DNA of 64,000 bases from Cetorhinus maximus (taxonomy: Eukaryota): the NCBI RefSeq assembly GCF_964194155.1, contig NC_135903.1, positions 1,054,001 to 1,118,000 of the forward strand, given 5' to 3'. Within the stretch, counting starts at the first letter, position 1. The number at the start of each line of letters is the position of its first letter. Positions 4,641-60,849 of the stretch are shown here, one piece after another. The notes beneath the pieces were generated by a model. That model was not told the origin of the DNA and did no database searches. It saw only the letters and a program-made list of their open reading frames with translations. The translations under genes and the position numbers were made by a program.

Positions 4641-5633
4641 GGTTGAATCTGCCTGCCTGTCTTAAGCGCTAATGTTGTTGAGAAAGCCCAATCTGTAATG
4701 ATTACACCCTGAGCTTTAGGCCTTGGATGTCCACCTAGGTTATTCATTTCAGGAAGTTTTGGTTGCTGCATCTCAGCTTTGATCTTAATTTCTTATTTGA
4801 CCTTTATAATGGTTTATACTTTCCCAAGGCTTCAACTTGTTAGTTAAAAGATGAAACAAGCCCAGCTTACTCGAATGTAGACAGCGAGTAAGAGTGAGAG
4901 AGAATTGATTGAGCTTTAACAGAATCTGTAGGTGTTGCCTAGTGGGGAAATGCTGCTCTCCTTTTCTGTCCTGCTGATTGTTTCTGTTTGAAGTTCTGAA
5001 AGCTTTAAATGAATTTATTTAGACTGCAAATGAATTAACTAATCTGCAAAAGTGTTCCTGATGGAAGGTCTGTCCTTGCCTGATAAAGGAAATTTAGCAA
5101 AGTATCTAAAACTGTGCAATGCTGCTAGGCATTATTTTAATCTAGTCCAATTCTATGTTAAATCCAAATGAACATAAAGTGGTAATAGTTGGTGCTCGGC
5201 TATATATATGGTATCTCATGAATGTTTGAGATGTATTGATTATACTCAGGTCTATATGATCTCAGGTTGGCTTGCTGTCAAGGAGGCCAAGGAGCATGAA
5301 CTGGGGATTCCTTTAGTCTCTGCAAACTCTTCTCTTAACCAGCCATTTTGTGGACAGTTTCCTGTTGTTCCTCTATGTGCAGTGTTGGGTCAGAGTTGGG
5401 AACTCTCAAGTTAACGAAGCAATGAACACCACAGGATGTGAGATGTTAGAGATGGAGTATCACAATGAATGTCATGAATTCAGTAAAGGGGCATACCAGG
5501 AAAATCCTGCATGTGTTCCTTCATAGGAATTAAATTAAAAGAATATCTTTTAAAAGCACCAGCAGCAAGTGGAAAAGAAACCATTGAGGAAAGAAGTAGA
5601 GGAACAGAGGAAAGTTAAGAAGTGATATGTACA

Positions 5634-7802
5634 TTTTTGAAATTCATTTACGGGATGTGGGCATTGCTGGCTAGGCCAGCATTTATTGCCCATCCCTAAT
5701 TGCCCTTGAAAAGGTGGTGATGAGCTGCCTTCTTGAACCGCTGCAGTCTATGTGGTGTAGGTACACCCACAGAGCTGTTAGAGAGGGAGTTCCAGGATTT
5801 TGACCTAGCGACAGTGAAGGAACGGCGATATATTTCCAAGTCAGGATGGTGTGTAACTTGGAGGGGAGCTTGCAGGTGGTGATATTCCCAAGTGTCTGCT
5901 GCCCTTGTCCTTCTAGATGGTAGCGGTCATGGGTTTGGAAGCTGCTATCTAAGGAGCCTTGGTGAGTTTCTGCAGTGCATTTTGTAGATGATACAGACTG
6001 CTGCCATTGTTTGTCAGTGGTGGAGGGAACGAATGTTTGTGGATGGGGTGCCAATCAAGCGGCTGCTTTGTCCTGGATGGTGTCCAGCTTCTTGAGTATT
6101 GTTGGAGCTGCATCCAGCTCATCCAGGCAAGTGGGGAGAGTATTCCATCACACTCTTGACTTTGCCTGGTAGATGCTGGACAGACTTTGGGGAGTCAGGT
6201 GGTGAGTTACTCGCCGCAGGATTCCTAGCCTCTGACCTGCTCTTGTAGCCACTGTATTTAAATGGCTAGTCCAGTTCAGTTTCTAGTCAATGGTAACCTC
6301 TAGGATGTTGATAGTGGGAGATTCAGCGATTGTTTGCTATTGAATGTCAAGGGTGATTGTTAGATTCTCTCTTGTTGGAGATGGTCATTGCCTGACACTT
6401 GTGTGGTGTGAATGTTACTTGGCACTTGTCAGCCCAAGCCTGGATATTGTCCAGGTCTTGCTGCATTTGGCCATGGACTGCTTCAGTATCTGAGGAGTCG
6501 CGAATGTTGCTGAATATAGCCCAAAGCCTTTGCAGTATCCAGTGCCTTCAGCAGTTTCTTGATGTCACGTGGAGTGAATTGAATTGGCTGAAGACTGGCA
6601 TCTATGATGCTGGGGATCTCTGGAGGAGGCCGAAATAGATCATCCACTCGGCGCTTCTGGCTGAAGATTGTTGCGAATGCTTCAGCCTTATCTTTTGCAC
6701 AGATGTGCTGGGCTCCTTCATCATTGAGGATGGGAATATTTGTGGAGCTTCCTCCTCCAGTGAGTTGTTTAATTGTCCACCACCATTCATGACTGGATGT
6801 GGCAGGACTTCAGAGCTTAGATCTGATCCGTTGGCTGTGGAATCACTGAACACGGTCTATCACTTGCTGCTTATGCTGTTTGGCACGCAAGTAGTCCTGT
6901 GTTGTAGCTTCACCAGGTTGACACCTCATTTTTAGGTGTACCTGGTGCTGCTCCTGGCATGCCCTCCTGCACTCTTCATTGAACCAGGGTTGATCCCTGG
7001 CTTGATGGTAATGGTAGAGTGAGGGATTTGTTGGACCATGCGGTTACAGATTGTGGTTGAGTACAATTCTGCTGGTGTTGATGGCCCACAGCGCCTCATG
7101 GATGCCCAGTCTTGAGTTGCTAGATCTGTTCAAAATCTATCCCATTTAGCACGGTGGTAGTGCCACATAACATGATGATGAGTATCCTCAATGTGAAGAT
7201 GAGATTTCATCTCCACAATGACTGTGCAGTGGTCACTCCTACCGATACTGTCATGGACAGATGCATCTGCGGCAGGCAGGTTGGTGAGGATGAGGTCCAA
7301 GTATGTTTTTTCCCTCTAGTTGCTTCCTTCACCAGCTGCTGTAGACTGAGCCTAGCAGCTATGTCCTTAGGACTCAGCCAGCTCGGTCTGTAGTGGAGCT
7401 ACAGAGCCATTCTCGGCAATGGACATTGAAGTCCCCCACCCAGAGTACATTCTGCACCTTTGCCACCCTCAGTGCTTCCTCCAAGTGGTGTTCGACATGG
7501 AGGAGCACTGATGCATCAGCTGAGGGAGGGCGGTACGTGGTAATCAGCAGGAGGTTTCCTTGCCCATGTTTGATGTGATGCCTTGAGACTTCATGGGAGT
7601 AGATGTTGAGAATTCTCGGGGTAGCTCCCCCCACACTGTAAACCACTGTGCTGCCATCTCTGCTGGGCCTGTCCTGCAGGTGGGACAGGACATACCCAGG
7701 GATGGTGATGGTGGTGTTTGGGACATTATCTGTGAGGTATGATCCCGTGAGTATGACTATGTCAGGCTGCTGCTGGACTATTCTGTGAGACAGCTCTCCC
7801 AG
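5634..7802 (-). mobile_element. CR1-group LINE (family A), ORF2 remnant with RT core deleted
   Basis: APE endonuclease motifs in ORF 7374-7823 (QPDIVILT, IPGY, YRPPS, VGDFNVH); linker EWWWTIKQL...; RT C-terminus QQDLDNIQAWADK; 3' tail shared with many fragments in this window. Confidence 0.88.
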
Positions 7803-10344
7803 TTTACAAGGATCCACTTCCAATGAATGACTTCCAGACCTTTTCAGCAGTATTGAGGCCTAGCAAAAACTGAGATAAAATAAAGGGACTTGGGAGATGA
7901 TGCTACATGGAAATGGGAGACAGAGTGAGAATCTCCTGAGATTGCCAAGGGAAGAGATCCCATTCAGGGGCAGATAGATAGTAAGTGGGAGAGAAGCCCT
8001 CTTGGACATTCAGTTGAGGGAAGGGAGATAGAGACATATAGGCCAGGATATTCTCCACATGGGCACAACCCGAAAGCTAGACCTGAAAATGGGCCCATCC
8101 CTGTGCCTGTTCTGCCCTTGTCCAGTTACACTCTAACATCCTGCCCGAATTATGCCCGAACAGAAAGCAAACTCGGGATCAGCCCCAAAAAATGTTGAGC
8201 TAACAGCATTTATTCCTTCCTTAAGTATGAAAATTAAAGTTTCAGCTCATTTAGCCATCCTTCATCCACATCAGGACTGTAGTCGGGGAAGCTTTTCAAT
8301 TTTTAATGTGACATTTTATGTTATAAAATTGCATTAAAAGAAACAGAAAATACAGAGCAAATCTCAGTGGGGATTTTTTTTTTAAAAACGCACTCCAAAG
8401 CCTGCAATAAAACACCAGAAAAAATATTTTGTCTTGTGCTAAGCCTGGAAAAGTGATAATTTGGAGAGTGATTCTGTCCAAGCTTAATAACAGAAATCGC
8501 TCAAAAAAGGCATTATAAATCAAGTGGTGGGGGGAGGGGTGAAGCAATTATTATGGGTAAAGATGAATTTGGCAGAGGGATTGTTAGGTGATGTAAAAGA
8601 TCATGGAGTTTGGACATGTATTACTTGCATGTGTAACTCACTTGTGTTTGAAGTTTAGTGACCTTTTAGGCCATACTCGTGTTGCACCCACATTACTCCA
8701 GTCTCAGAGTGCAAACAAGTAGCTAGTTCCAGGGCATCTAGTTGAAATTTGGGGTGGGGTGGAAGACAGAGGATGTGACTCCTTTTGAATGGATGTGGGA
8801 AGAAAGTGGGATGAGTACCGTGCTGTGGGGTATAGGGGGAGGGAGAAATACTTATGTGGAGGGAAAGGTGAAAAATGGGGAAACCTTATTGAGTAGGAGG
8901 AGGATGCCGGAAAAAAAAGAGGGAGAAATTCTGTCATGGGTTGTCACAAAGCGACGTATTAATGTATATAATGTATAGAAACTTAGGAGATTCACTCACA
9001 TGCTGTTTTACTGTGGTGCTGCCCCTGTAAACAATGCAATGTTCTGACTCGCCCATTAGTGAAAAGGGATGGTTTCTGTCAGATCATTGGACAAGTAAAA
9101 TGTTTATAATGGCAGAAGATGGAACAGATCTCTGGTTTTGGCATGCATTTGTTTGGATTTGTCAAATGATTAAGTTACTCAACTATGAAAAGGGTAATTG
9201 TGAAGTAAGTTTGTGTTTAGTATCCATGTAAGTATATTCATGTTACAATAATAGTGTAATCTAGTGTTAGCAGCAATACAACAAAGGGAATAATATTTGC
9301 TGAAAGCTATCACTAACACTCAGCTCCACACACACAAACCTAACATTTAACAGCCATGATAAGAAACATTGAATTTACTGTGAAACTGTGTTTATCTATC
9401 CAACACCAGCGCGACCTTTATCACACCTCGGAGTTCACATGTGCAAAGCATATGGTTAGTCTCACATCTGATTGGCTCAAGGATCCCATTCATAAAACAG
9501 TGACTAATCGGGTAGGGAACAAATAACGAGCAACTTTGAAAACCACCAATCAAGAATCAGTAGCAACCATCTAACAATAAAATATATGCAGAGGAGGAAA
9601 CCAGGAACCAATGATATCAATGAAAATATATCTCAAGATCCTTTTGGCTACAATGTTGTTTACTCAGCCAGCCATCTATACACAGATGATATTATGTATG
9701 AAAAGACTGTTTATTGGCATAACCTGTACAAGATAAAATACATTGCAAAAAGTACTTTAAAAAACAAACTACAACATTTACCAACTTGTGTTGAAAATGT
9801 GTTAATTTCTTAGTTTTTCCCTCGAAGACCTAATATCCCCCAGGGACTTGGGGCTTGAGTTTGCTCCTGTTATGATTTCCCATTAATCAACAATTGGGTT
9901 TTATGCTGCTGATACAGTTACTATTGGAACCCTTGCTGTGGTCACTTTCTGACCCCTTGCCATGGTTGTTTTCTGGCATAATGGTGCAGTCTTGGCTTCT
10001 CGATCATGACATAGCAACAGCTATTTTCTGACCCATTCTGCAAGTGTGGCTGATACAGGTCATCCTGTTGCAGTCTTAGTCTAGTGCTCTCTGTTTCTCC
10101 CCCTCGCCACTGCGTACCCCCCCAAAAAACTCCATTGTCTCACAGTGACACAAGAACACCTACCAGTAAAATATGAAATTATTGGTATTTTGAGGTATCT
10201 TTAAGCCTTTGAACAAAAGGGGTACATGCAAAAAGAAGAAACTATTAGATTTATTAACCCTCTTCCATCCAAAGCATCATATCCTATTCCTACTCCTACA
10301 ATATCTCCCCAATTATGTAACCTTGAGTGGGAGATGAGCCTAAT

Positions 10345-10883: not shown

Positions 10884-11059
10884 TTTTAAAATATTCGTTC
10901 ATGGAATGAGAGCGTCTCTGGCTAGGCCAGTATTTATTGCCCATCCGTAATTGCCCTTGTTTGAGAGCATTTAAGAATCAACCACATTGCTGTGGGTCTG
11001 GAGTCACATGTAGGCCAGACCAGGTAAGGATGGCAGATTTCTTTCCCTAAAGGACATTA
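10884..11059 (-). mobile_element. SINE family B, 3' part
   Basis: Matches 45097-45275. Confidence 0.75.
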
Positions 11060-11084
11060 GGGCTGTATAAATATTTCTCCCAAA

Positions 11085-11385
11085 CTTATGATCTGCACCA
11101 CCAAGAAGAACAGGGCAGTAAGTACCATTTTCAAGGTCCATTCCAAGTAGCACACCATCCCAAGTTGGCAATATATTATCCTCCCTTTAGCTTCACTGGG
11201 TCAAAATCCTGGAACTCCTCCCCCTAACTGCCCTGTGAGCGTACTTACACCACACGAACTGTAGTGGTTCACAGTAGGAATTGGACATGATGCTTTGGCT
11301 GACCATCACCCTCTCAAGGGGGCATTTGGCATGGATAATAAATGCTGGCCTCGTCAACAATGCCCGTGTCCCATGATTGAATAAG
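11085..11385 (+). mobile_element. LINE family A 3' end fragment
   Basis: Reverse-complement similarity to 5640-5930; ends AATAAATGCTGGCC...CCCATGATTGAATAA. Confidence 0.7.
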
Positions 11386-15487: not shown

Positions 15488-16680
15488 CAAAAACAAAAAT
15501 TGCTGGAAAAACCCAGAAGGTCTGACAGCATCTGTGGAGAGGAAGACAGAGTTAATGTTTCGAGTCCGAATGACTCTTCATCAGAACTAAAGAGAAATAG
15601 AAATGTGGTGAAATATAATCTGTTTAAGGGGGGTGGGACAGGTGGAGCTGGATTGAAGGCCGGTGATAGGTGGAGGCAAAGTAGAGATTGCCAAAGATGT
15701 CATAAACAAAAGGACAAAGGGGTGTTGATGGTGGTGATACTGGCTAAAGGAGGTGCTAATGGTGACATTAAGGGTAGAAAGCAGGATGAGCAAGTGACAG
15801 ATAGCCCTAGTGGGGGTGGGGTGGGGGGAAGGGATCGAAATAGGCTAAAAGGTGGAGATAAAACAATGGATGGAAATAAATTTTAAAAATAATAATAGAA
15901 ATAGGTGGGAAAATAAAAATATATAATAATTATTAGAAAAAAAGGGGATGAAAAAGGGGGTGAGGATGAAGGAGAGACATCATGATCTGAAGTTGTTGAA
16001 CTCAATATTCAGTCCGGAAGGCTGTAAAGTGCCTAGTCGGAAGATGAGGTGCTGTTCCTCCAGTTTGCGTTGAGCTTCACTGGAACATTGCAGCAGGCCA
16101 AGGATGGACATGTGGGCATGAGAGCAGGGTGGAGTGTTGAAATGGCAAGTGACAGGGAGGTCTGGGTCATGCTTGCGGACAGACCGAAGGTGTTCCGCAA
16201 AGTGGTCACCCAGTCTGCGTTTGGTCTTTCCAATGTAGAGGAGACAGCACTGGGAGCAGCGAATGCAGTAGACTAAATTGAGGGAAGTGCAAATGAAATG
16301 CTGCTTCACTTGAAAGGAGTGTTTGGGCCCTTGGACGGTGAGGAGGGGGGAAGTAAAGGGGCAGGTGTGGCACCTTCTGTGGTTGCATGGGAAGGTGCCG
16401 TGGGAGGGGGTTGAGGTGTAGGGGGTGATGGAGGAGTGGACCAGGGTGTCCCAAAGGGAACAGTCCCTATGGAATGCCGACAGGGAGGTGAAGGGAAGAT
16501 GTTATTTGGTGGAGGCATCATGCTGGAGTTGGCAGAAATGGCAGAGGATGATCCTTTGAACACAAAGGCTGTTGGGGTGATAAGTGAGGACAAGGGGGAT
16601 CCTATCATGGTTCTAGGAGGGAGAGGAAGGTGTGAGGGCGGATGCGCGGGAGATGGGCCGGACATGGTTGAGGGCCCTGT
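15488..16680 (-). mobile_element. Penelope-like element (Neptune-type), 5'-truncated, with GIY-YIG endonuclease
   Basis: ORF 15980-16309 LVYCIRC..C..LYIG.T...RL....EH...PSGLN; upstream Cys motif GTFPCNHRRCHTC; flanked by the 12-bp direct repeat CAACATTTGTGA (15476-15487, 16681-16692). Confidence 0.92.
15545..15587 (-). ncRNA. Minimal type I hammerhead ribozyme core in the Penelope terminal repeat
   Basis: Minus strand: CTGATGA-A-GAGTC-ATTCG-GACTC-GAAACA-TTAACTC-TGTC; conserved core, 5-bp helix II, 3-bp helix III, GUC site; helix I not clearly seen. Confidence 0.7.
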
Positions 16681-18075
16681 CAACATTTGTGAACCTTGTA
16701 CATCCATATGAATCAGAATTAGAGCCAACATTTGGCCCAGTGCTATGTTTTGTTTTTAAATGAACTGTTTAAGCACAATTTGAGTTCCTTTCATTATCTA
16801 ATGAAGATGACTGTTTGAATTCCCTCACTAGATGAATGGTACCAGTTCTTCGCTGGGCTGTTCAGTGAGCAGTGGAGAAAAAGGGAGGAAGATAAATTCC
16901 CCAGGCTCTCTGTTCTCCTTCCATTCAGTCTGCACACAGCAGCACACTTTTAATGATGACCTATGGAGTGCAAATGTAGAGAAGACCACAGCGCAAGCAT
17001 TCCCAGGCCTACAGCTGTCGGAAGAAATGCATTCATATGGACCATGGGAGTTCAGCAGGAATATGAATAAATAAAACAGTCAGTCTGGGGGACTGTGTGT
17101 ACCACAGTGAGTCACAAATGCTGTTAAGATATGTTAATGGTGATTTCATTTAAATCAATTGTTCTATAGTTCAGGTGCAAAATGCAGTTGATTAAAAGGC
17201 TTCCATTTTCATCGTTGAAAAAATGCTAATTGTTATTAAAGCACCTCTTTATAAATATTAATATTAATGAGGTATTAAATCTAATGTTGGTATACTTTAT
17301 CCGGATTGCACTTTGTCTCTATTGATGCGCATATAACTTGTGGAAATAACCTGCATTTTACTTGGAGTTTCCTTTGCCATTCAGTTTGCCAATGAATTAT
17401 TTCAAATTTAGTTATGGATCAAGTGATGGAGGGGCAGTAAATAATTCCTTCACATTCAGCCTCTCATTCTGTTTCAACCCTTTCTCCTTTGACCTCAGAA
17501 ATTTTAGAATGAGCTCAAATTAAATTCAATGATTAAAGGATTATGGAATCTGTTAAGAAAGACATGGGTATGGTGTGGTGACTGACAGGGCCATTGTATT
17601 GTGTCACGCAGGGCTAAGGCACAACTATGGGGATAGGTGGAAGAATGGCACCTCCTGATACAGTGACTGACCTTATCTATGCCTCTGTTTTTCAATGATT
17701 CATCTCTGGGTGAAGATCTCATCCATGTGCTCTTTTCCTCTTGTGTATTTGTGCCACTTTCCAACAGGCGTCTCTATAAAGGGTCCATTTATAAATGGAG
17801 CATTGAGAATAATAATCCTGAGGCTATGGGCTGGGGCGACCCCGGCAGATTCACTGTTTGAGGTTGTCTGGGTGCCAGTCCTGTGTTTAGTTGAATCAAA
17901 AGGGGCAAAACATCACAAAGCCCAAGGAGGATATCAAAATCAAACAAAAAAAAAAGCAGTTTGCAAATGTAACAGAGTTTACCAAGATGCTGAGCGCTGT
18001 TCCATGTCACAATGCGTTGCTGAACCAGCTCCCTGCACCATTGATTAGCTTGTTTTGAAGCTTTCATTTTCCCAC

Positions 18076-19474: not shown

Positions 19475-19849
19475 TTTTTTTTGTATTTGTTCATGGGATG
19501 TGGGTGCCATTGGCTAGGCCAACATTTGTTGCCCATCCCTAATTGCCCTTGAACTGAGTGGCTTGCTAGGCCATTTCAGAGGGCATCTAAGAGTCAACCA
19601 CATTGCTTTGGGTCTGGAGCCACATGTAGGGCAGACCAGGGAAGGACAGCAGGTTCCCCTCCCTAAAGGGCATTGTGAACCAAATGGATTTTACTGACAA
19701 TCAACAATGGTTTCATTAGACTTTTAATTCCCGATTTTCATTGAATTCAAATTCCACCATCTGCCATGGTGGGATTCAATCCCCTGAGTATTACCCTGGG
19801 TTTCTGGATTACCAGTCCAGTGACAATAGCGCTACGCCACCACTTCCCC
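19475..19849 (-). mobile_element. tRNA-derived SINE family B, near full length
   Basis: Minus strand begins GGGGAAGTGGTGGCGTAGCG (A-box-like), has TTGAATCCC (B-box-like) and ends with the LINE family A tail; collinear with 45097-45469. Confidence 0.85.
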
Positions 19850-19989
19850 TCAAACAATAAATCTGCATTCACAAGATGATTACTCATGAGGAAGACCAAT
19901 GGGCCCCTCTAAACTCCGACATCTGGAAAGATCACAAAGTCTCGTCATTTGTACCATCTGATTTGTCTCCATCCTTCCACCTGGAAGAG

Positions 19990-21360: not shown

Positions 21361-22235
21361 TAAGTATAGGTAACCAGAGGGACACAGATTTAAGTATAGG
21401 TAACCAGAGGGACACAGATTTAAGTATAGGTAACCAGAGGGATACAGATTTAAGTATAGGTAACCAGAGGGACACAGATTTAAGTATAGGTAACCAGAGG
21501 GATACAGATTTAAGTATAGATAACCAGAGGGACACAGATTTAAGTATAGGTAACCAGAGGGATACAGATTTAAGTATAGGTAACCAGAGGGACACAGATT
21601 TAAGTATAGGTAACCAGAGGGACACAGATTTAAGTATAGGTAACCAGAGGGATACAGATTTAAGTATAGGTAACCAGAGGGACACAGATTTAAGTATAGG
21701 TAACCAGAGGGACACAGATTTAAGTATAGGTAACCAGAGGGACACAGATTTAAGTATAGGTAACCAGAGGGATACAGATTTAAGTATAGGTAACCAGAGG
21801 GATACAGATTTAAGTATAGGTAACCAGAGGGACACAGATTTAAGTATAGGTAACCAGAGGGACACAGATTTAAGTATAGGTAACCAGAGGGACACAGATT
21901 TAAGTATAGGTAACCAGAGGGATACAGATTTAAGTATAGGTAACCAGAGGGACACAGATTTAAGTATAGGTAACCAGAGGGATACAGATTTAAGTATAGG
22001 TAACCAGAGGGACACAGATTTAAGTATAGGTAACCAGAGGGACACAGATTTAAGTATAGGTAACCAGAGGGACACAGATTTAAGTATAGGTAACCAGAGG
22101 GACACAGATTTAAGTATAGGTAACCAGAGGGACACAGATTTAAGTATAGGTAACCAGAGGGACACAGATTTAAGTATAGGTAACCAGAGGGACACAGATT
22201 TAAGTATAGGTAACCAGAGGGGACACAGATTTAAG
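21361..22235. repeat. 30-bp minisatellite, 29 copies
   Basis: Unit TAAGTATAGGTAACCAGAGGGA(C/T)ACAGATT; 28 units fill 21361-22200, then a 31-bp unit; 8 units carry T; one G>A change in unit 6. Confidence 0.99.
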
Positions 22236-22494: not shown

Positions 22495-22782
22495 TTTTTG
22501 ATGGGATTTGGGTGAGCATTTGTTACCCATCCCTAATTGCCCTTGAATTGAATGGCTTATTTCAGAGGACAGTTAAGAGTCAACCACATTGCTGTGGATC
22601 TGGAGTCACACGTAGGCCAGACCAAGCAAGGATGGCAAAGTTCTATCACTAAAGGGCATTAGTGAACCAAATAGGTTTTTAGGACAATCAATGATTTATT
22701 AATTGAATTTAAATTCCACCAGCTGCTGTGGTGGGATTTGAACCCATGTCCCCAGGGCATTACCCTAGGTCTCTGGATTACC
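22495..22782 (-). mobile_element. SINE family B, partial
   Basis: Collinear with 45097-45430. Confidence 0.8.
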
Positions 22783-24162: not shown

Positions 24163-24470
24163 GGGGCCAGATTTTCATGCCTCTGTCCATGTTGAAATGG
24201 TGGTGGAAGGGTTTTAAAAATGACGGGTAGGGCTGGATTTTGGGATTTCCACCCCCGTTCCTGCTTCTGGCAATTTTTGCCAGCGTGTGATGCGGGTATG
24301 GATAGCGAGCCCAAACACAGCACCCACACCCTTCCTGGCTTCATTGGGATGGGCACTTCCAACACCTCGCAATTTTGGAGTCTGGCTGGTTTTTCCAGGA
24401 GATGTGGTTCACAGCTTCGCAGAAGAGTCATGAACCATGGGGAGACCCTAGTCAGGAATAGGGAACCAAA
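24163..24470. mobile_element. Probable Harbinger-type MITE fragment
   Basis: Starts GGGGCCAGATTTTC, similar to the other GGGC-type TIRs; GC-rich interior; no partner TIR found. Confidence 0.4.
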
Positions 24471-24530
24471 AAAACAAGCAGGCATTCAACATTCCCTTTG
24501 AAAAACCTTTTCTCCTCTTACCTTCTCATA

Positions 24531-25592
24531 AAGGTGGTCGATGGATGCCCTTGCAAATGGAAAGTTGTCTCAAGTAGTGTTCCACAGGGCTCGGTGTTGG
24601 GACCCTTGCTGTTTGTGTTATATATTAACGATTTGGACATGGGGGGCATGATGGGGAAATTTGCAGATGACACGAAGATTGGCCGAGTAGTGGATAGTGT
24701 AGAGGATAGCCATAATCTCCAAAACGATATCGATGGGTTGGTGGAGTGGGTGGTAAAGTGGCAGATGGATTTTAACATAGAGAAGTGTGAGGTCATACAT
24801 TTAGGGAGGTCAAACAGCTACAGGGATTACACAATAAATGGGAATATACTAAGAGGGTTAGATGATGTGAGAGATCTTGGCGTACAAGTACACAGGTCCC
24901 TGAAGGCAGCAGTTCAAGTAGACAAGGTTGTAAAGAAGGCATATGGAATGCTCTCCTTCATTGGCAGAGGTACAGAATATAAAAGTAAGGATATAATGTT
25001 GGAATTGTATAAAACACTGGTGAGGCCACAACTAGAGTATTGTGTGCAGTTCTGGTCACCACATTACAGGAAGGACGTAATAGCTCTGGAGAGAGTGCAG
25101 AGGAGGTTTACAAGAATGTTGCCAGGGTTAGAAAAGTGTAGCTACGAGGAGAGATTGGATAGGTTGGGGTTACTTTCCTTAGAACAAAGAAGGCTGAGAG
25201 GTGACTTGATTGAGGTGTACAAAATTATGAGGGGAGTAGATAGAGTGGACAGGATAAAATTGTTTCCCTTGGTGGAGAATTGTAGAACTAGGGGACATAG
25301 ATTCAAGATAAGTGGCAGAAAATGTAGGGGGGACATGAGGAAGAAGTTTTTTTTACGCAGAGGGTAGTGGGTGTCTGGAATTCGCTGCCCAAGTTGGTGG
25401 TAGAGGCAGAAACTCTAAACTCTTTTAATAAGTACCTGGATCTGCACCTTAAGTGCTGTAAGCAGCAGAACTATGGGCCGGGTGCAGGAAGGTGGGATTA
25501 GAAAGGGCACCTGGGTGTCCTCGGGCTGGCATGGACAAGATGGGCCGAATGGCTTCCTTCTGTGCTGTAACTTTTCTCTGGTTCTATGGTTC
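24531..25592 (+). mobile_element. Young 5'-truncated CR1 LINE (RT C-terminal half)
   Basis: Uninterrupted frame with VPQGSVLGP, YINDL, FADDTK, LVRPQLEYC, TRGH; poly-T slip near 25350; tail GGTTCTATGGTTCTA; possible TSD TAAAG (24529-24533, 25593-25597). Confidence 0.95.
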
Positions 25593-26505: not shown

Positions 26506-26797
26506 TTTTTTTATATATTCATTCACAGGATGTGGGTGTCACTGGCAAGGCCAGCATTTATTGCCCATCCCTAATTGGCCTTGAGAAGGTGGTGGTGAGC
26601 TGCCCCTCTTGAACCGTTGCAGTCCCTATGGTGTAGGTGCACCCACAGTGCTGTTACAGAGGGAATTCCTGGATTTTGACCCAATGAGAGTGAAGAAATG
26701 GTGATATAGTTGCAAGTCAGGATGGTGAGTGGCTTGGAGGGGAACTTGCAGGTGGTGATGTTCCCATGTATCTGCTGCCCTTGTCCTTCTAGGTGGT
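26506..26797 (-). mobile_element. LINE family A 3' end
   Basis: Closely matches 5640-5922. Confidence 0.85.
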
Positions 26798-26880
26798 AAA
26801 GAGGGCAGACAGGGCTTTGGCTTAATCTCTTGTCCATAGGGTAGGGCCGCTGTTAAAATAGCAGACAGGAATGACATATG

Positions 26881-30075: not shown

Positions 30076-30116
30076 CTCAAGAATAGAATAACCTGCCAAC
30101 ACTTGGTTAGCTGGAA

Positions 30117-30550
30117 TAAATACAAAATGCTGGAATAACTCAGCAGGTCTGGCAGCATCTGTGGAGAAACAGTTGACATTCCAAGTCAAATGACTCGGGC
30201 AGGAATGTGATTATGCTGTCGAAAAGGGGTGGGGGGGTGGGGAAGATCAGGTGGAGAAAACAGGAAAGTCTACTAATATTCGTTACAAGCCCACCAACTC
30301 CCACAGGTACCTCGACTACACTTCCTCAAACCCTGCTTCCTGTAAGGACACCATCCCACCTGACCCTAGCTTCCCACTTTTTCGACAGCATAAAACCCAT
30401 CATGTTTCTACTTCTCTGCAGTTCTGAAGAAGAGACATATCGGACTCGGAACATTAACTCTGTCTCTCTCTCTCCACAGTTGCTGCCAGACCTGCTGAGT
30501 TTTTTCAGCATTTTCCATTTTTATTTCAGATCTCCCACATCTGCAATTTT
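30117..30550. mobile_element. Rearranged Penelope remnant: inverted terminal repeats around a short coding fragment
   Basis: Minus-strand terminal repeat 30117-30260; plus strand 30269-30358 encodes STNIRYKPTNSHRYLDYTSSNPASCKDTIP; plus-strand terminal repeat 30400-30550 with a degenerate hammerhead core. Confidence 0.8.
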
Positions 30551-31344
30551 TAATGAATTTTTAATTCATCGGATTAACTGGACTTTCAAGGAATGCACTA
30601 GTTAGTGCCTGTGGAACGATCCTCTAGCAGATGATAATGTCTTGTTGAAAGGTAAAGTGTAAAAGGAAAATTTTGGCAATAAAAATTGGAAGCTTTGTTT
30701 ATCCTCTCATCTTTTTTCTTCTATATTGACCGTTGTAGTAACTTAAACTTGGGTGTGCTTCAAAAGACAATGGTGGTCTTGCCCAAGTAGTCCTACCTGA
30801 TACGTGTGTTTGGGCAGTGTTGGGCTCACCTTGAGGTCATAGCTGAACCTGGGATTGTTGCATCCACAGATGCACTTTGCAGCAAGGGTCGATAAATACG
30901 GTAAAGGAACCAGAATGCTGGTTACTTGGTGTTACTCCACTATCCCTGGTGACATATTGAAGTCAATTGCCTTTTGCCCATGTCTGACCAGATTGAGATT
31001 GGCTAAGGGTTCAGGGTTCAAACCTGGAACCTTTCTGATTTTTTTTTTCGTATGAGAAGGAATCTATATATTTGAGCGTAAAATCACCAGGGGATCTTAG
31101 CCTGGAGCATTGCTCCAAATATCTGAAACCTAAATTAATCAGTTGACTTGTGTTACCGAGGGGGTTTAATTTAAAACAATCCTGATTTCTCCTCTTGCCA
31201 CCCATCCATAAACAGAAAAGTGTTTTTTAATTTTTGATTTTCTCTCTTTTTAAGTGGTGCCATATTTTCTACAACCCCGCATTTTGGAGTGACCCAATCC
31301 TCTATTAATAACAACATCGCAAACTTGAGACAGGGTAAAATCAG

Positions 31345-32497
31345 AGATAAAAACAAAAAGCTAAAAGCTACTGCGGATGCTGGAAATCCAAAACAAAAAC
31401 AGAATTACCTGGAAAAACTCAGCAGGTCTGGCAGCATCGGCGGAGAAGAAATCAGTTAACGTTTCGAGCCTTCATGGCCCTTCGGCAGAACTGAAGCATA
31501 GTTAGAAGAAGGGAGAAATATAAATTGGTTTAAGGTGGGGGGGGTGGGGGGGGAGAGAGAGACACATTGAGGGTGTGGTGATTGTGGAGATGAGCAGATA
31601 ATCAAAAGATGTCACAGACAAAAGGGTCAAAGAGGTGTTTTGTCTGAGAAAAGTGCTAATTAAGAATGGAGGACAGGATATTCAAAGTACAGCTCTAGTG
31701 GGGGTGGGGTGGAAAGGCTAAAGGTTTTAGTTTTAGATTTAAAAATAATGGAAATAGGTGGGGAAAGAAGAATCTATATAAATTATTGAAAAAAAAATAA
31801 AGCGGGGGGTAGGGTGGGGGGGAAGAAACGGGGTGGGGATGGGGGGAGGGGGAGTTTAAGATCTAAAGTTGTTGAATTCAATATTCAGCCCGGAAGGCTG
31901 TAAAGTACCTAGTCGGAAGATGAGGTGCTGTTCCTCCAGTTTGCGTTGAGCTTCACTGGAACAATGCAGCAAGCCAAGGACAGACATGTGGGCAAGAGAA
32001 CAGGGTGGAGTGTTAAAATGGCAAGCGACAGGGAGGTTTGGGTCTTTCTTGCGGACAGACCGCAGGTGTTGCGCAAAACGGTCGCCCAGTTTGCGTTTGG
32101 TCTCTCCAATGTAGAGGAGACCGCATTGGGAGCAACGAATGCAGTAGACTAAGTTAGGGGAAATGCAAGTGAAATGCTGCTTCACTTGAAAGGAGTGTTT
32201 GGGCCCTTGGACGGTGAGGAGAGAGGAAGTGAAGGGGCAGGTGTTGCATCTTCTGCGTGGGCATGGGGAGGTGCCATAAGTGGGAGTTGAGGAGTAGGGG
32301 GTGATGGAGGAGTGGACCAGGGTGTCCCGGAGGGAACGATCCCTACGGAATGCCCTCAGGGGGGGTGAAGGGAAGATGTGTTTGGTGGTGGCATCATGCT
32401 GGAGTTGGCAGAAATGGCGGAGGATGATCCTTTGAATGCGGAGGCTGGTGGGGTGATAAGTGAGGACAAGGGGGACCCTATCATGTTTCTGGGAAGG
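31345..32497 (-). mobile_element. Penelope-like element (Neptune-type), 5'-truncated
   Basis: Open frame from about 32495 to 31856: DRVPLVLTYHP...AFRRDRSLRDTLV...PCPRRRCNTC...LVYCIRCSQCGLLYIGET...PSGLN; terminal repeat at 31360-31495. Confidence 0.93.
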
Positions 32498-33576
32498 TTT
32501 ATTTTACATGCACTCAAAATGCAAGGAGGGGGTGTTGCTACGTAACCCCAGTATGTTCACACAATAAGGGAAAGAAAGAGGTACAGGGCAAAGACCATGG
32601 GAAAAAAATATTCTTGTTTTACGTGTGTCTAGAGTCCAGAATCAAAAGTCCAATGGTATATTCCCTCAGAGAGGTTGGCAGGCTGAAGCTAATGCTTCAC
32701 TTTTCTAGTAACACTGACTTCCACAAGGGGAGAAGCATGTAGAGATGAATTAATCTTGTAGGAGCCGCTGGTACAGAAATTCTGATGTTCCAGTAGAAAG
32801 ATTGTAGAGAAGGGGCAGGCAATTTAAACCTGGACAGCGCTCTGGTTCTGCTGCTGCTTGGTTGATGGAAGATGGCAGACAGTGGTAGGCTGCTAGCCTG
32901 GAGTCCGATTTTATACAGTGACTGGAGATGGAATCTGAAAGCTGTATAATTAAGGCACTTCAAACAGCTCAAGTGACATGGTGGTTTCAGGTAGAGCCAT
33001 TCCGCTAAATAATGTATTTTAAGGCCTACTCATTAAAACCCATTGATCAGGTAACTGTAGAACCATTAGCACAATACTGGAGATGAGGAGTCACAAATAG
33101 CTTTGTCTTTGTCCAGTGCTGGCTGGGGCAGATGTCTCATCTACTAGTCCATTGTCTTGCCTTGGCTGGAATGTTGATACAAGTCACGTTCCAGGAAGCT
33201 GTTGAGTTTGCCTTTGTTGGTTGGAACTGCTCAGAGTTTTACAGAACTACCAGCATGAGACTAGCTGCAGCCATTTTATCAGCCCAGCAATTGTCCTTTT
33301 TAAAGAAAATAATTTAAACAAGAGAATCTGGAAGGGAAACAAATTTCTTCTGGATTTTTTTTTCTTCATGCCTTCTTGGCATGTTACTTGTTAGTGAGCA
33401 AACTGGTCAGTAAAACATAACCCCTGAGAAGGTCACTATTATAGGCAATGGACTGAAATGCGGTGATTGCTCAGCTCAATAACTAAGCGACCCGGAGATA
33501 CATATATGTATAATTTTATAGAAGGCTGATGCTATTGCAGTGATTTTAAAATAGCCTAATTTCTGGCACTTATTGG

Positions 33577-33824
33577 ACTGATAGAGGTGAATAGTGGAGC
33601 TAGATTTTTGAGATCTTCAGCAGAAACCTTCATTGCTGATGAACAAATCCGAGCTTTCCCAATGGCCAAGTAGGTAAAGGCACTGTCTGGCGTAACACAA
33701 ACATGTACCAGGCTCGGATCTTGATCAGTGTGTCGGGGAATTAGTACTTGAACTCAACTGGGACAGCAGTTGACAGTAGCAACCTTGTGCTAGGGAAGGG
33801 AAAATACCTCCGCCTGATTCCTAT
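33577..33824 (+). repeat. 248-bp local direct duplication, copy 1
   Basis: Matches 34373-34620 with 6 substitutions by my count. Confidence 0.95.
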
Positions 33825-34620: not shown

Positions 34621-34789
34621 CTGCAAGACCCCGATGGTGCCTGTGAGCAGACATTTGGTGAGGACAGGATTTGGCTCCGCTATGGAACTCTACACAGTAG
34701 AATAGTCAACTGGTGCACATGCACACGACCTCTTGGGAGAAGTCATGGCAGAGCTGAAGCATGGTGTCTGCAGCAAGAGTCAGGTCAGT

Positions 34790-43302: not shown

Positions 43303-44340
43303 GTCTTTACCAGAGCAGTCCTGGGTTGCAAGCATTGAAAAGTGTGCACATGGCTGCAGTTTAAATATGGCGCCCGGCTAGAGGAAGCAGTGAGGTAACT
43401 GCATGGCAGACAAATCAGAGGCTGCCCACCAGCGATCCGGCCTGTTTCTCGCGTCTGCACCATTTGAGGTGGGAAGGGGACAATATGACACGAAATCCTG
43501 CCATTGCAGCTGGAGGGTAAAATGTCTTTTTTCACACCCACTACCACACTCAGTGCAAATCTGGGACGATTCCGCTCCCTACTTTTAAACAGTGACCCAG
43601 TGAGGCTTACTGCTTTGCTGATGTACTGACTATCTCTTGACTCTTTCTAAATATCTAATGTTTGAGCATAAAATCTCATTGTGCAGTGGCTTTTGCTTTT
43701 CCACAGCTTTAAACCCCACGTCCATGAATAAACTTGTCACTCAGCTCATTTTAACATTAATCGCTCTTGAGATTTTAAGCACCATCATCTGCCCTTTGAC
43801 AGAGGCAGTAACATCTTATATTTGAATTGCATTCTCGACAATGACAGAAGCTCCCACTTTTCCAACAACCTACACTTACTGCAGAGAATGCAGCTCTCAT
43901 ACTTGGTTTTAAGCGCCACTGATATTTTTATCTTTCAATTCACACAATTTCAAATTGAATGCTAGCCACTTGCTGAAAGCAGAGCACCAGAGGTTATTGT
44001 CAGTTTGCTTTCTGACTAGTTGATAGGGCTGATACCACCAACTAAAACATGACTATCCGCATCCCTGTGGGATTTTTGTCAGTAGTGAAACAGTGGATGG
44101 GAAACAGTTTGAGATGTGCAGCTCTGAGCTGCCTATGTTCAGCCAGCATATGGTGCTGAAGAGGCTCCTCATGATCTCTTGAAAGCAGATAACAGCTCCT
44201 ATCAGTCAAGTAAAAAACAAACGGCTGAGAAAATGGAAGTGAATTAGTGCTGGGAGCTCGAGAATTTCCTTTGAAGGGGATTGGACCCCAGCTGTGAGAT
44301 CATGTCTTTTCCTGTCCATTTACTTTTTATCCTTTCTAAT

Positions 44341-44530
44341 ATAAAAACAGAAAATCCTGGAAACAATCAGCAGGTCTGGCAGCATCTGAGTTCACTGAGT
44401 TCTGATGAAAGGTCATCGACTGAAACATTAACTCTCTTTCTCTCCATAGATGCTGCCAGAACAACTGAGCTTGTCCAGCATTTCCTGCTTTTATTTCAAA
44501 TTTCCAATAACCGCAGTATTTTGCTCTATT
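44341..44530. mobile_element. Fold-back Penelope terminal-repeat mini-insertion with hammerhead core
   Basis: Arm 44341-44388 is inverted against about 44448-44495; plus-strand CTGATGA-A-AGGTC-ATC-GACT-GAAAC at 44402. Confidence 0.82.
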
Positions 44531-44897: not shown

Positions 44898-45069
44898 AAA
44901 AGCAAAATACTGTGGATGCTAGAAACCTGAAATAAAAACAGAAAATGTTGGAAAAACTCTTTAGCTCTGAAGAAGAGTCATGTGGACTCGGAACATTAAC
45001 CCTGTTTCTCTCTCCCCAGATGCTGCCAGACCTCCTGAGTCTTTTTCAGAATTTTCTGTTCTTATTTCT
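44898..45069. mobile_element. Fold-back Penelope terminal-repeat mini-insertion
   Basis: 14-bp TSD GAGTTCTCC(C/A)TGGT (44884-44897, 45070-45083); core CTGAAGA-A-GAGTC-ATGTG-GACTC-GGAAC at 44967. Confidence 0.87.
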
Positions 45070-45096
45070 GAGTTCTCCATGGTGTTCTGGCCAATA

Positions 45097-47409: not shown

Positions 47410-49350
47410 CAAGTCTGGGGAATTAATAGTGGAAAATATGAAAACGGTGGAAGAATTGAACAGGTATTTTGTATCTGCCTTCACTGTAGACAGTACAAAT
47501 AACATCCCAGAAATAAGTGTGCATCAAGAGGTGAAAGGGAGGGAGTAACTTAAAACAATTGCAATCACCAGGGAAAGGGGACTGAGAACATTGTTCTAAC
47601 TAAAAGCTGACAAGTCCCCAGGTCCTGATGGACTTCATCCTAGAGTCTTAAAAGAAGTAGCTGCTGAGTTAATAGGTGCGTGGTTTTAATTTTCCAAAAT
47701 TCCCTAGATTCTGGAAAGGCCCCATCAGATTGGAAATTAGCAAACGTAACTCCTCAAGATAGGAGGGAGGCTGAAAGCAGGAAGCTACGGGACAGTTAGC
47801 GTGACAAATGCTGGAGTGTATTTTTCAAGAAGCTATAACAGGGCACTTGGAAAACCTCAATGCAATCAGAGTCAACCTGGTTTGTGAAAGGGAAGTCATG
47901 TTTGACAAAGTTATTAGAGATTTTTGAGGAAGTAACAAGCAATGTGGATAAAGGGGAACCTGTGGATGTGCTGTACTTAGTTTTCCAGAAGGCATTTGAC
48001 AAGGTGCTGCTTCAAAGGTTACTACACAAATATGAACTTATGGTGTAGGGGGTAACATATTAGCATAAATAGAGATAAAAACAGAAAATGCTAGAAAAAC
48101 TCAGCAGGTCTAGCAGCATCTGTGGAGAGAGAAACAGTTAATGTTTTGAGTCTGTATGACTCTTTTTCAGAGCCAAAGGTGCTGCCAGACCTGCTGAGTT
48201 TTTCCAGCATTTTCTGTTTTATTTCATATTTCCAGCATCTGCAGTATTTTGCTTTTAGCTTAGCATGGATAGAGGATTGGTTAGCTAACAGGAAACAGAG
48301 AGTAGGCATAAATAGGTATTTTTCGAGTTGGCAAAATATAACAAGTGGAGTGCCACAGGGAACAGTGCTGGGCCCTCAACTACTTGCAATCTATATTAAT
48401 GACTTGGATGATGGGACTGAATGCATAGTTGCTAAATTTGCTTTTGACACAAAGGTAGGTAGGAAAGTAAGTTGTGAAGAGGACATAAGGAGTCTGCCAA
48501 GGGTTATCGAAGGGTTAAGTGAGTGGGCAAAAATTTGACAAATGGATTATAATGTGGGAGAATGTGAACTTGTTCATTTTGGCAGGAAGAATAAAAAAAC
48601 AACAAATTATTTAAATGGGGAGTGATTGCAAAGGTGCAGAGGGATCTGAGTGCCCTGATACACGAACCACAAAAAGTTAGTATGCAGGTACAGCAAGTGA
48701 TTAGGAAGGCAAATGGAATGTTGTCATTTATTGCAAGGGGAATGAAATATAAAAGTAGGGAAGTTTTGCTACATTTGTATAAGATATTGGTGAGAATACG
48801 TTTAGAGAACTGTGTATAGTTTTGTCCTCCTTACTTAAGAAAGGACATAATTGCATTAGAAGCAGTTCAGAGAAGGTTCACTCGACTGACTACTGGGCTG
48901 AGGGGGTTATCCTATGAGGAAAAGTTGGGACTGCATCCATTGGAGTTTAAAAGAATGAGAGGTGATCTTATTGAAACATATAAGATCTTAAGGGGGCTTG
49001 ACAGGATGGATGCTGAAAGGATGTTTCCCTTTGTGGGAGAGGTTAAAACTAGGGGACACAATTTAAAAATAAAGGGTCTCCCATTTAAGACTGAGGTGAG
49101 GAGAAATTCTTTTTCTCTGAGGGTTGAGAGTCTGTGGAATTCTTTTCCACAGAGAGCAGTGGAGGCAGCACCATTGGATATTTTTAAGGCTGAGTTAGAT
49201 AGGTTCTTGATTGACAGGGAGTCAAAGGGCAAAGGGGGTAGGAAGGAATGTGGAGTTGAGGTTACGATCAGATCAGCCATGACCTTATTGAAAGGTGGAG
49301 CAGGCTCAAGGGGAGCCTAACCCTGCTCCAAATTCAGATGTTTGTATGTA
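47410..49350 (+). mobile_element. CR1 LINE ORF2 remnant with 3' UTR
   Basis: KSPGPDG, GKSCLTKLLE, FQKAFDKV, GVPQGTVLGP, YINDLD, TRGH, WNS; many stops and indels; interrupted at 48067-48259. Confidence 0.93.
48067..48259. mobile_element. Fold-back Penelope terminal-repeat mini-insertion in a CR1
   Basis: Perfect 7-bp TSD TTAGCAT (48060-48066, 48260-48266); about 45-bp inverted arms (48077-48121, 48177-48220) enclosing a degenerate hammerhead core. Confidence 0.9.
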
Positions 49351-52250: not shown

Positions 52251-52684
52251 TGGAAAACCAAGATTTTTCCAGACTTTTCCTTGGAACTCAGCTCTCCTCT
52301 GCTAAGGACTTTGCTCTTTTCTGAGTGATCTTTGAGGGTTCCAATGTCTTGAGTCTCTGAGCAGAATGAGACATAGTACGCAAGATGTAAGCATGTGGCC
52401 ACATGTGGTCATGAACTCTCATTAAAATGATGAACAGCTATTTTCAGTGCTTCAGTGCTAAGCAAAATCATTATGCCTGGACATTGCACCAAACAACAAC
52501 TGACCAAAATTTGGAAAGACATTTTACAACCTTGTGGAAGATCATTAACTCGCTGCATGGGGAGTAAAACTAGTATTGAGGATCTGCCACTCATTATAGA
52601 ATTAACCTGAATTTCATTTCTGTTGATGTTCCAGTGGTAATGAAAATTGGGCAGTTTGCATAGCAGACAACTGATCCTCATTCA

Positions 52685-52783
52685 ATAAAAACAAAAATAC
52701 CTGGAGAAACTCAGCAGGTCTGACAGCATCTGCGGAGAGGAACACAGTTAACGTTTCGAGTCCAAATGACTCTTCATCAGCTG
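52685..52783 (-). mobile_element. Isolated Penelope terminal-repeat fragment with intact hammerhead core
   Basis: Minus strand CTGATGA-A-GAGTC-ATTTG-GACTC-GAAAC-GTTAAC-TGTGTT; matches 15488-15585. Confidence 0.82.
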
Positions 52784-55037: not shown

Positions 55038-55205
55038 ATAAAAGCAAAATACTGTGGATGCTGGAAATCTGAAATAAAAACAGAAGGCGCGGGAAAAACT
55101 CAGCATGTCTGACAGCATCTGTGGAGAGAGAAACAGTTAGCATTTTGAGTCCGCGTGACTCTTTTTCAGAGCTCTGTTTTTCCAGCACTCTCTGTTTTTA
55201 TTTCA
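55038..55205. mobile_element. Fold-back Penelope terminal-repeat mini-insertion
   Basis: TSD GAGTTCCTTTATT / GAGTCTCTTTATT (11/13); short inverted arm 55176-55205; degenerate hammerhead core with helix II GAGTC/GACTC. Confidence 0.82.
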
Positions 55206-55864
55206 GAGTCTCTTTATTGGTTTCATTCTAAGGTTTTGCTTTGAATATGTTGTCTAGTACTCTTTGCTTTTGTGATTTTATATTACCTGACCTTGAAAGA
55301 AAAAAAATGACAGCATGGGTTAACTGGAGAAGATTTGTAATCAATGACAAAGACTTTTTTGTAAAGGTGTCCTCGCAACATCTAAATTAGGGATTTTATG
55401 AATTCGCTGTTGAGCAATATTATCAGCGAATTAAGGTAGAGCTACAAAGAATATTATCATACACTTCAGGAGATTTCCCAGTGTTTACCCAACTAAGAGG
55501 ATGAGTCAGCAGCCTGGGGCTAAGTCATGTGGCCTGACCCTAGAAGGACCCATCAACAGCCTTGGGATTCTCCGTTTGAGATTCCTTAAGGCTGGTTGGG
55601 GGTTGGTGGTGATGGAATGGCCTCTGCCCAGTACCACCATCTTACAGAATAACAGGAACCTGGAACTGCTAGTGTGGGAATCATTGCCAAGTACTTCTAC
55701 TGCAACATTCTGGGGCGCTTATTGTGCCCCAAACTACTATTCCACCATGTTGCTCAGAATTTACAGTTACTATAAACTTGTGTTTTGTGGTATTTCACCA
55801 TTCAGATGACATAATTTATTCTAAGAAGGGTCCTTTGGTGAAAACTGGGAATATTTTGAAATGA

Positions 55865-60124: not shown

Positions 60125-60562
60125 ATCCGGGTGGGGTGAAGGAATCGAAAAACGCTAAAAGGTAGAGATAAAACAATGGATAGAAATACATTTAAAAATA
60201 ATGAAAATAGGTGGGAAAAGAAAAATCTATATAAATTATTGAAAAAAACAAAAAGGAGGGGGAAAAATCAGAAAGGGGGTGGGGATGGAGGAGACAGTTC
60301 ATGATGTAAAGTTGTTGAACTCAATATTCAGTCCGGAAGGCTGTAAAGTGCCTAGTCGGAAGATGAGGTGCTGTTCCTCCAGTTTGTGTTGAGCTTCACT
60401 GGAACAATGCAGCAAGCCAAGGACGGACATGTGGGCAAGAGGGCAGGGTGGTGTGTTGAAATGTCAAGCGACAGGGAGGTCTGGGTAATGCTTGCGGACA
60501 GACCGAAGGTGTTCTGCAAAGCGGTCACCCAGTTTGCGTTTGGTCTCTCCAATGTAGAGGAA
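60125..60562 (-). mobile_element. Penelope fragment (GIY-YIG C-terminus and 3' UTR)
   Basis: Closely matches 15830-16243; LYIGETKRKLGDRFAEH...PSGLN. Confidence 0.9.
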
Positions 60563-60849
60563 ACTGCAACTTCATATAATGGGAAAACCTCTGCAGTGTG
60601 ATGGCACTTGAGTCAACAAGCTAAGTGTGCACAGAGGTGCTGTGAGGGGAGAAATAAACTAGGAAAACAGTCATGATGCAGTCAGTCATGAGTTTAGAAA
60701 GGTATGAAGTGTTCACTAATGTATCAAGTTAACTTAAACTGCTCTGTTCTCATTGTTCCACTTAAGTGCAGTATAACACTGAGTTTACCTTTTCTCTTTC
60801 CACAATCTCTTTACCTAATTTATCTGTTTTCTTTAACTTGCTCTCTTCC

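What the first reader, a model, noticed from the sequence alone, without database searches (positions are those of the whole stretch)
15545..15587. Hammerhead ribozyme cores scattered through the window in Penelope terminal repeats
Seen: minus strand CUGAUGA-A-GAGUC(AUUCG)GACUC-GAAACA(UUAACUC)UGUC has the conserved hammerhead core and a GUC site. Related cores occur near 30424 (+), 31488 (-), 44402 (+), 44967 (+), 48170 (-), 52780 (-) and 55169 (-); those at 15584, 44402 and 52780 keep both CUGAUGA and GAAA. Helix III is only 2-3 bp with a near-palindromic (G/A)UUAAC loop. Known: Penelope-like elements carry minimal type I hammerheads proposed to act as dimers. Inference: about 8 cores in 64 kb implies a very large genomic load of potentially self-cleaving RNA. 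Caveat: I cannot see a convincing helix I.
Basis: partly seen in the sequence, partly recalled or inferred. Interest (0 to 1): 0.7.

Follow-up and report, generated by a model that had tools for sequence, protein, structure and literature searches.

The report
Decayed Penelope hammerheads, cut site reassigned
These eight motifs are real, mostly damaged copies of a known miniature hammerhead RNA motif carried at the ends of a very abundant Penelope-type jumping gene; it is predicted to cut only as a pair and at a different site from the one first proposed, and most scattered copies are likely inert leftovers.

Summary
All eight cores exist, plus a ninth truncated one. They are terminal-repeat (pLTR) ends of an RT + GIY-YIG Penelope-like element with intact 924-codon copies elsewhere in this 4.0-Gb genome. 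The motif is the published loop-less minimal hammerhead: helix I AGUU/AACU, helix II with compensatory changes, helix III from the AC|GU palindrome in a dimer, predicted cut after GAAAC-GUU/GUC. Helix I forms in this register in 144 of 162 copies and in 0 of 91 at the downstream GUC. The 15584 copy lost G16.2 by CpG decay; 0 of 8 window copies keep both a canonical core and helix I. About 0.3 million cores are estimated genome-wide, but only 22,348 keep the canonical core pattern. Inserted copies show no core-specific conservation (4.2% vs 5.4% mismatch), and none of 72 mapped 5' ends lies at the cut site. A 'large load of self-cleaving RNA' is therefore not supported. The interesting residue: younger subfamilies (57,807 copies) replace the conserved A6 by U or C. 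This scan noted both the motif and the A6 change many times before, on other DNA of this and other genomes. Cleavage is untested.

The parts
15550..15588 (-). Minimal type I hammerhead, focal copy: helix I 5' strand 15588-15585, C3-A9 15584-15578, bulged A 15577, helix II 15576-15572/15566-15562, G12-A15.1 15561-15558, C15.2 15557, position 16.2 15556 (A here, G in the family), U16.1-U17 15555-15554, predicted cut 15554/15553, helix I 3' strand 15553-15550
   Evidence: matches the consensus in PMC4209133 Fig. S3
15489..16753 (-). 5'-truncated Penelope-like copy: end of ORF (residues 665-924 of the intact ORF, 75% identity, two stops), 3' UTR/pLTR and hammerhead; older A6 subfamily
   Evidence: nearest relatives 94% DNA
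15545..15547 (-).
31342..32554 (-). 5'-truncated young copy with GIY-YIG endonuclease (open frame 31856-32503), hammerhead at C3=31488 with A6C core, otherwise intact, and 3' tail
30104..30548 (.). Inverted insertion unit: core at 30424 (+; A13G, G16.2A), truncated opposite-strand copy 30196-30104 lacking CUGANGA, and a 91-nt RT piece 30268-30358
44335..44522 (+). Stub with inverted 5' arm (44335-44390); core at 44402 of the old AGGUC helix II type (G16.2A, one base missing in helix II)
44898..45084 (+). Stub with inverted 5' arm; core at 44967 (A13G, G16.2A)
48053..48261 (-). Stub with inverted 5' arm (48173-48261); core at 48170 (G8A, G12A, G16.2A)
52684..52781 (-). Stub starting at C3; the only canonical intact core in the window, but the 5' strand of helix I is missing
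55040..55210 (-). Stub with short inverted 5' arm; core at 55169 (G8A, G12A, C15.2U, U16.1C)
60129..60568 (-). Fragment of the same element (ORF residues 836-924 and 3' UTR) without the hammerhead end

Best explanation
The cores are copies of the loop-less minimal type I hammerhead motif in the terminal repeat of an RT + GIY-YIG Penelope-like retrotransposon; the motif likely cuts, slowly and only as a strand-swapped pair, in transcripts of intact tandem elements, while the scattered genomic copies, including the one at 15584, are likely inert. Shown: fold register, association with the ORF, same-strand motif pairs 3.3 kb apart around intact ORFs, decay of copies. Inferred: the 5' half of one motif (helix I 5' strand, CUGANGA, helix II, GAAAC) pairs with the GUU/GUC-AACU strand of the second motif through the ACGU palindrome and cleaves after position 17, probably helped by the element's protein as reported for the anole element. 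Also inferred: the element RNA starts about four bases before C3, so complete reverse transcription of short uncut RNA gives the many 100-190-nt stubs, and CpG deamination then destroys G12, C15.2 and G16.2 in most copies.
For: Register: helix I at 3 or 4 of 4 bp in 144 of 162 copies. Helix II 95.8% paired, with both-side changes at 3 of 5 pairs (5, 5 and 10 of 90 sequences); position 17 varies between U and C. The published consensus has the same anatomy, including C-G-U-U with no loop. Carrier: PF01541 upstream of 31488; PF00078 + PF01541 in a 924-codon frame; that frame in 13 of 20 fetched loci, same-strand motif pairs around an ORF in 8 of 20. Decay: core CpG positions 44/188 mismatched; non-CpG core 24/566 against low-variation flank 140/2570, p=0.30. 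5' ends: 24 of 72 at -7..-1 of C3, 0 of 72 at the cut site. Published min-HHRs are inactive as monomers and weak as dimers; the anole HHR cleaves only with protein and is not needed for insertion in vitro.
Against: No cleavage was measured and no RNA ends could be seen (only assembled contigs). Helix I shows almost no both-side change (1 sequence in the four inner pairs), and an AGCU subfamily breaks one pair (12 of 90 unpaired). The focal sequence folds no better than shuffles (z=0.06). The youngest intact elements sampled carry A6C, which lowers Mg2+-dependent cleavage in other hammerheads, so the present function may not be cleavage. Not all copies are isolated: 15 of 56 have a same-strand core within 3.5 kb, and 9 ordered enzyme-substrate pairs with non-A6 cores look complete within 3.5 kb. 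Against all 52 flank columns the core is better conserved (4.2% vs 11.4%), though that includes subfamily differences.
Confidence: 0.72

Rival explanations
1. The motif no longer cuts in the active lineage; it is kept as a structured 5' end (promoter/initiator, protein-binding or packaging element) of the element RNA.
For: A6 is U or C in 57,807 pattern matches against 22,348 with A6; non-A6 copies are less diverged (flank 0.032 and 0.020 vs 0.077, p=2e-5). No 5' end at the cut site in 72. Naiad PLEs spread without canonical HHRs; HHR mutants did not impair insertion in vitro.
Against: The other core bases, both core CpGs, a non-G at 17 and both helices are kept in the youngest copies, with compensatory change in helix II; natural C6 hammerheads still cleave.
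Confidence: 0.17
2. The dispersed copies form a large load of active ribozymes that cut host transcripts, through neighbouring copies or in trans.
For: About 80,000 copies keep every core base except possibly A6; 9 complete-looking same-strand pairs within 3.5 kb in 780 kb; family sequence is present in runs guessed to be RNA.
Against: 0 such pairs with canonical A6 within 3.5 kb (3 within 10 kb); opposite-strand neighbours are commoner (22 of 56 vs 15 of 56); each half pairs by only 2+4 bp; 0 of 8 window copies complete; published dimers are weak.
Confidence: 0.07
3. Monomeric hammerhead with a 3-bp helix III, a UUAACUC loop and cleavage at the GUC at 15545.
For: In this copy ACA/UGU can pair and a GUC follows; some downstream GUH exists in 91 of 162 copies.
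Against: No helix I in 0 of 91; the C-G pair of that helix is broken in 41 of 90 sequences; the A-U third pair arises from the copy's own CpG decay.
Confidence: 0.02

Closest known systems
[quoted passage not shown]
   Same: U-rich lead-in, short helix I, CUGANGA plus one unpaired base, G10.1-C11.1, palindromic 15.2-16.2 with no loop III, NUH site (CGUU and CGUC both listed), mostly single copies from truncated elements, some opposite-strand pairs.
   Different: Copy number (about 0.3 million cores estimated, 22,348 canonical pattern matches) exceeds their 4,000-9,000 in coelacanth and frog, by a different method. All 56 representatives in their Fig. S3 have A6; here younger subfamilies have U6 or C6. 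No cartilaginous fish is among the 56.
PAc (Poseidon) hammerhead of Anolis carolinensis (Frangieh et al. 2024, PMC11167929)
   Same: HHR in the pLTR near the ORF start, tandem arrangement, optional 3' tail.
   Different: There the ORF starts inside stem II; here the first ATG of the long frame is about 185 nt downstream of C3. This ORF has a CX4CxxC linker motif, which PMC8557442 assigns to Neptune/Nematis and not to Penelope/Poseidon.
Natural A6C hammerhead of phage Bcep176 (PMC3088659, PMC7151607)
   Same: C at core position 6.
   Different: That is a single monomeric bacterial-phage ribozyme with measured low Mg2+ and good Mn2+ activity; here C6 is in 22,943 pattern matches of a loop-less dimer-type motif, untested.
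Non-LTR retrozymes (PMC7229834 abstract; bioRxiv 10.64898/2026.07.22.740005)
   Same: Short type I HHR-bearing repeats derived from PLE pLTRs.
   Different: Retrozymes are head-to-tail tandem arrays; the window's short copies are solo stubs or head-to-head inversions and no tandem array of them was found.

Membership tests
min-HHR of metazoan PLEs | Core C3 U4 G5 A6 N7 G8 A9 ... G12 A13 A14 and NUH | tested here: met
   Met by the family: 22,348 exact matches. Not met by the 15584 copy at 16.2, nor at position 6 by the U6/C6 subfamilies.
min-HHR of metazoan PLEs | Short helix I closing the motif (type I) | tested here: met
   144 of 162 copies; inner four pairs formed in 85, 85, 78 and 89 of 90; little covariation.
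min-HHR of metazoan PLEs | Helix II with G10.1-C11.1 and one unpaired base after A9 | tested here: met
   95.8% paired, compensatory changes at 3 of 5 pairs; an old subfamily has A-U at the first pair.
min-HHR of metazoan PLEs | Palindromic 15.2-16.2, no stable monomer helix III | tested here: met
   A-U in 85 of 90; C-G 64, U-G 10 of 90.
min-HHR of metazoan PLEs | Located in both pLTRs of a PLE | tested here: met
   Same-strand pairs about 3.0-3.3 kb apart around the ORF in 8 of 20 loci.
min-HHR of metazoan PLEs | Self-cleavage as a dimer | not testable with these tools
   Only assembled contigs were available.
EN+ Penelope-like element | Single ORF with RT and C-terminal GIY-YIG | tested here: met
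   PF00078 at 408-577 (above cut-off), PF01541 at 827-862 (20.9 bits, below the 22.6 cut-off; 25.3 bits for the window fragment); DKG and YIDD motifs.
EN+ Penelope-like element | Partial tandems, inverted 5'-truncated copy, optional 3' tail | tested here: met
   described in PMC8557442.
Neptune/Nematis clade | CX2-5CxxC linker between RT and EN | tested here: met
   Motif at residue 790; definition.
Neptune/Nematis clade | RT phylogeny groups with Neptune | not tested
   No reference PLE RTs were fetched.
Non-LTR retrozyme | Head-to-tail tandem units each with an HHR | tested here: not met
   Window copies are solo or inverted.
Rfam hammerhead families | Covariance-model match | tested here: not met
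   No hammerhead family among 12 matches at E<=10; the motif lacks helix III, so this lowers Rfam membership only.

The most novel reading that the evidence does not exclude
The most recently active lineage tuned its hammerhead down rather than losing it: A6 became U and then C while every other core base, both CpGs and both helices were kept. The motif sits at the extreme 5' end of the element RNA as an attenuated, protein-licensed switch that cuts only in full-length tandem transcripts. The graded A6/U6/C6 series, each with more than 20,000 genomic copies, would be a natural test of why Penelope elements keep hammerheads at all.
Probability: 0.3. Interest if true: 0.55.

Novelty: new member of a known kind. 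Interest (0 to 1): 0.24.

Why it matters
As a motif this is ordinary: it was described in 2014 across animals, and this scan has logged it in at least 32 genomes. The check corrects the fold and shows that copy number is a poor proxy for active ribozyme load, since CpG decay, 5' truncation and strand geometry remove most copies from play. What could matter is the A6-to-U/C shift in the younger subfamilies, which makes the open question of the hammerhead's role in Penelope transposition testable with natural variants.

Tried and rejected
In one search the outer A-U pair is a gap in 71 of 90 rows partly because my cut-outs end there, so only the C-G pair count is informative. 2) Rfam: no hammerhead hit. 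3) A shared -1 frameshift between RT and EN in the U6/A6 lineage: it appeared in most relatives, but those were retrieved with the window copy, which has a private insertion plus a shorter C-run; copies picked by the ribozyme pattern or at random were in frame or varied in length. Rejected as query bias on a homopolymer. For the same reason the absence of full-length frames among those 150 relatives (longest 660 codons) is weak evidence that the A6 lineage is extinct. 4) RNA ends and splicing: 22 runs listed, all assembled contigs; 4 laid, all only guessed to be RNA; no end pile-ups and no joint at the AG before helix I; uninformative. 5) The pyrimidine tract + AG before helix I as a splice acceptor: not excluded, but stubs share no upstream exon sequence, so a start site is preferred. 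6) Folding energy: not discriminating. 7) PDB search with the ORF: 0 hits. 8) Lunse et al. 2017 is not held; known only through passages of PMC6765202. 9) A pseudoknot from loop II, raised in an earlier scan note, was not tested.

Full report
Observation. A profile built from the eight finds a ninth, 5'-truncated copy at 30196-30104 and several inverted arms. Rfam gives no hammerhead match among 12 hits at E<=10. The window is G000:C26:1054001-1118000 in a 3.99-Gb genome. That the host is a shark is my recollection of similar repeats and the wording of earlier scan notes; I did not test it.

Carrier element. The 15584 and 31488 cores end 1.2-kb 5'-truncated copies that carry the C-terminal part of an ORF; the frame at 31859-32503 matches GIY-YIG (24 frames scanned). 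A search with that frame gave 150 scored matches, mostly 98-99% identical. I fetched 20 of them chosen for long frames: 13 hold a 924-codon frame and 8 hold same-strand motif pairs about 3.0-3.3 kb apart around an ORF. That frame has RT and GIY-YIG domains, DKG and YIDD motifs and a CX4CxxC linker, which PMC8557442 gives for Neptune/Nematis. Partial tandems, inverted 5' copies and optional tails are the known PLE pattern.

The fold. In the family the bases after GAAAC are GUU or GUC followed by AACU, and AGUU precedes CUGANGA. I aligned 90 of the 121 distinct sequences, leaving out 31 by eye, mainly those that had lost the 5' strand by truncation or were heavily decayed. Helix II is 95.8% paired with both-side changes at 3 of 5 pairs; helix I is 88.7% paired but varies almost only on one side; A15.1-U16.1 forms in 85 of 90 and C15.2-G16.2 in 64 of 90. 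The shuffle control there ignores relatedness and is not a probability. The anatomy equals the consensus of PMC4209133 Fig. S3, where C-G-U-U and C-G-U-C without a loop are common. Folding energies do not discriminate (z=0.06).

Load. Exact genome-wide counts: 3,827 for one subfamily pattern (control 0), 22,348 with a canonical A6 core (control 9), 57,807 with U6 or C6 (control 37), of which 22,943 are CUGCYGA (control 0). In 78 unselected 10-kb stretches there were 88 hits (0 reversed). Of 87 hits re-scored, 57 span the core, 7 have a canonical core, 24 if position 6 is free, and 6 and 21 also keep both helices. That extrapolates to about 0.29 million cores (0.22-0.38) and 36,000 canonical ones (14,000-74,000). 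The window's 9 copies are not above the 6.6 expected (P=0.23). In the window 1 of 8 has a canonical core (52780, which lacks the 5' strand of helix I) and 1 more is intact but for A6C (31488). Over 63 copies, non-CpG core positions mismatch at 24/566, low-variation flank columns (41 of 52) at 140/2570 (p=0.30), all 52 flank columns at 372/3261, core CpG positions at 44/188. So copies decay without core-specific protection, while subfamily founders kept the structure. Geometry: 15 of 56 cores have a same-strand neighbour within 3.5 kb and 22 of 56 an opposite-strand one (lower bounds, 10-kb stretches). Complete-looking enzyme-substrate pairs within 3.5 kb number 9, none with A6; 3 with A6 within 10 kb; in the window one pair at 1.3 kb (C6) and A6 pairs only at 14.6 kb or more.

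Ends. Of 90 copies mapped, 72 have 5' ends between -100 and +59 of C3: 24 at -7..-1 and 0 at the predicted cut (+30..+32) (nominal p=2e-15, but inverted pairs share junctions and old copies drift rightwards). Several stubs have target-site duplications next to that point. I first read the upstream pyrimidine tract and AG as a splice acceptor (note), as in D. virilis. An earlier scan note suggested a transcription start; stubs share no upstream exon, so I prefer that reading. The likeness to an initiator motif is recalled. RNA data could not test it.

Position 6. Flank divergence is 0.077 for A6 (35 copies), 0.032 for U6 (16) and 0.020 for C6 (10), p=2e-5, two G6 copies aside. On a tree of 49 upstream regions the 32 C6 rows form one side of a branch (100/99), with U6 and A6 interleaved beyond it; the tree is midpoint-rooted, its bootstrap had not settled, and C6 rows were over-sampled by my query. 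Best identities among the C6 loci are 97-100% against 91-95% among relatives of the 15584 copy. All 56 published representatives have A6. A6C lowers Mg2+ cleavage but leaves Mn2+ cleavage in two other hammerheads. Searches showed no paper on a shark PLE hammerhead or on a position-6 variant in PLEs; most subscription papers and bioRxiv supplements are not held, and the retrozyme preprint includes one chondrichthyan.

Mechanism. Shown: register, carrier, tandem pairs, decay, end positions. Inferred: in a transcript of an intact tandem element the first motif's 5' half pairs with the second motif's GUH strand through the ACGU palindrome and cuts after position 17, slowly and probably with protein help. 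Published min-HHRs were inactive as monomers and weak as dimers; the anole ribozyme cleaved only with protein and was dispensable for insertion in vitro. Solo and inverted genomic copies lack a partner and lose core bases at CpGs, so most would be inert.

Papers seen: PMC4209133 parts 1-2 of 4 and supplement parts 1-2 of 3; PMC11167929 parts 1-2 of 4 and passages; bioRxiv 10.64898/2026.07.22.740005 part 1 of 5 and passages; passages only of PMC8557442, PMC7151607, PMC3088659, PMC6765202 and PMC6155905; PMC7229834 listing only; Lunse et al. 2017 not seen.

Prior scan notes. 263 findings in at least 32 genomes hold the same key words and 45 in this genome, several on the A6 change and the stub start point. 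I had recorded both before looking. They are unchecked and are not counted as support.

Verdict. Real, known kind, fold corrected, load overstated. Interest 0.24; the A6 series is the part worth a bench test.

Noticed in passing
window 21361-22235: Tandem array of a 30-bp unit, 29 copies, 97% matches; gives open frames on both strands with no test done.
   Followed up: no
window 24462-25367 (+) and 7374-7859 (-): LINE fragments: RVT_1 and endonuclease/exonuclease/phosphatase Pfam matches.
   Followed up: partly
window 5634-5922, 10885-11086, 19477-19855, 22517-22773, 26509-26798, 45096-45392, 55869-56153: Other dispersed repeat families; 19749-19855 and 22729-22773 give weak tRNA-like Rfam matches, likely SINEs (recalled).
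   Followed up: no
L100, L105, L051, L046, L059, L078 (unselected stretches); G000:C1 pairs: Tiny head-to-head palindromes whose centre is at the 5' strand of helix I.
   Followed up: partly
ORF residues 753-757; window about 16490-16510: A C-run between RT and EN varies in length among copies and is a frameshift hot spot.
   Followed up: yes
window 44967, 48170, 55169; L007, L102, L089: A subfamily has AGCU instead of AGUU in helix I without a compensating change, leaving a C-A mismatch.
   Followed up: partly
L124-L140: The youngest copies have a U-G wobble at the pair next to the cut site in addition to C6.
   Followed up: partly
window 33574-33830 and 34370-34626: 257-nt direct repeat, 96% identical, around an (AT)n tract.
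   Followed up: no
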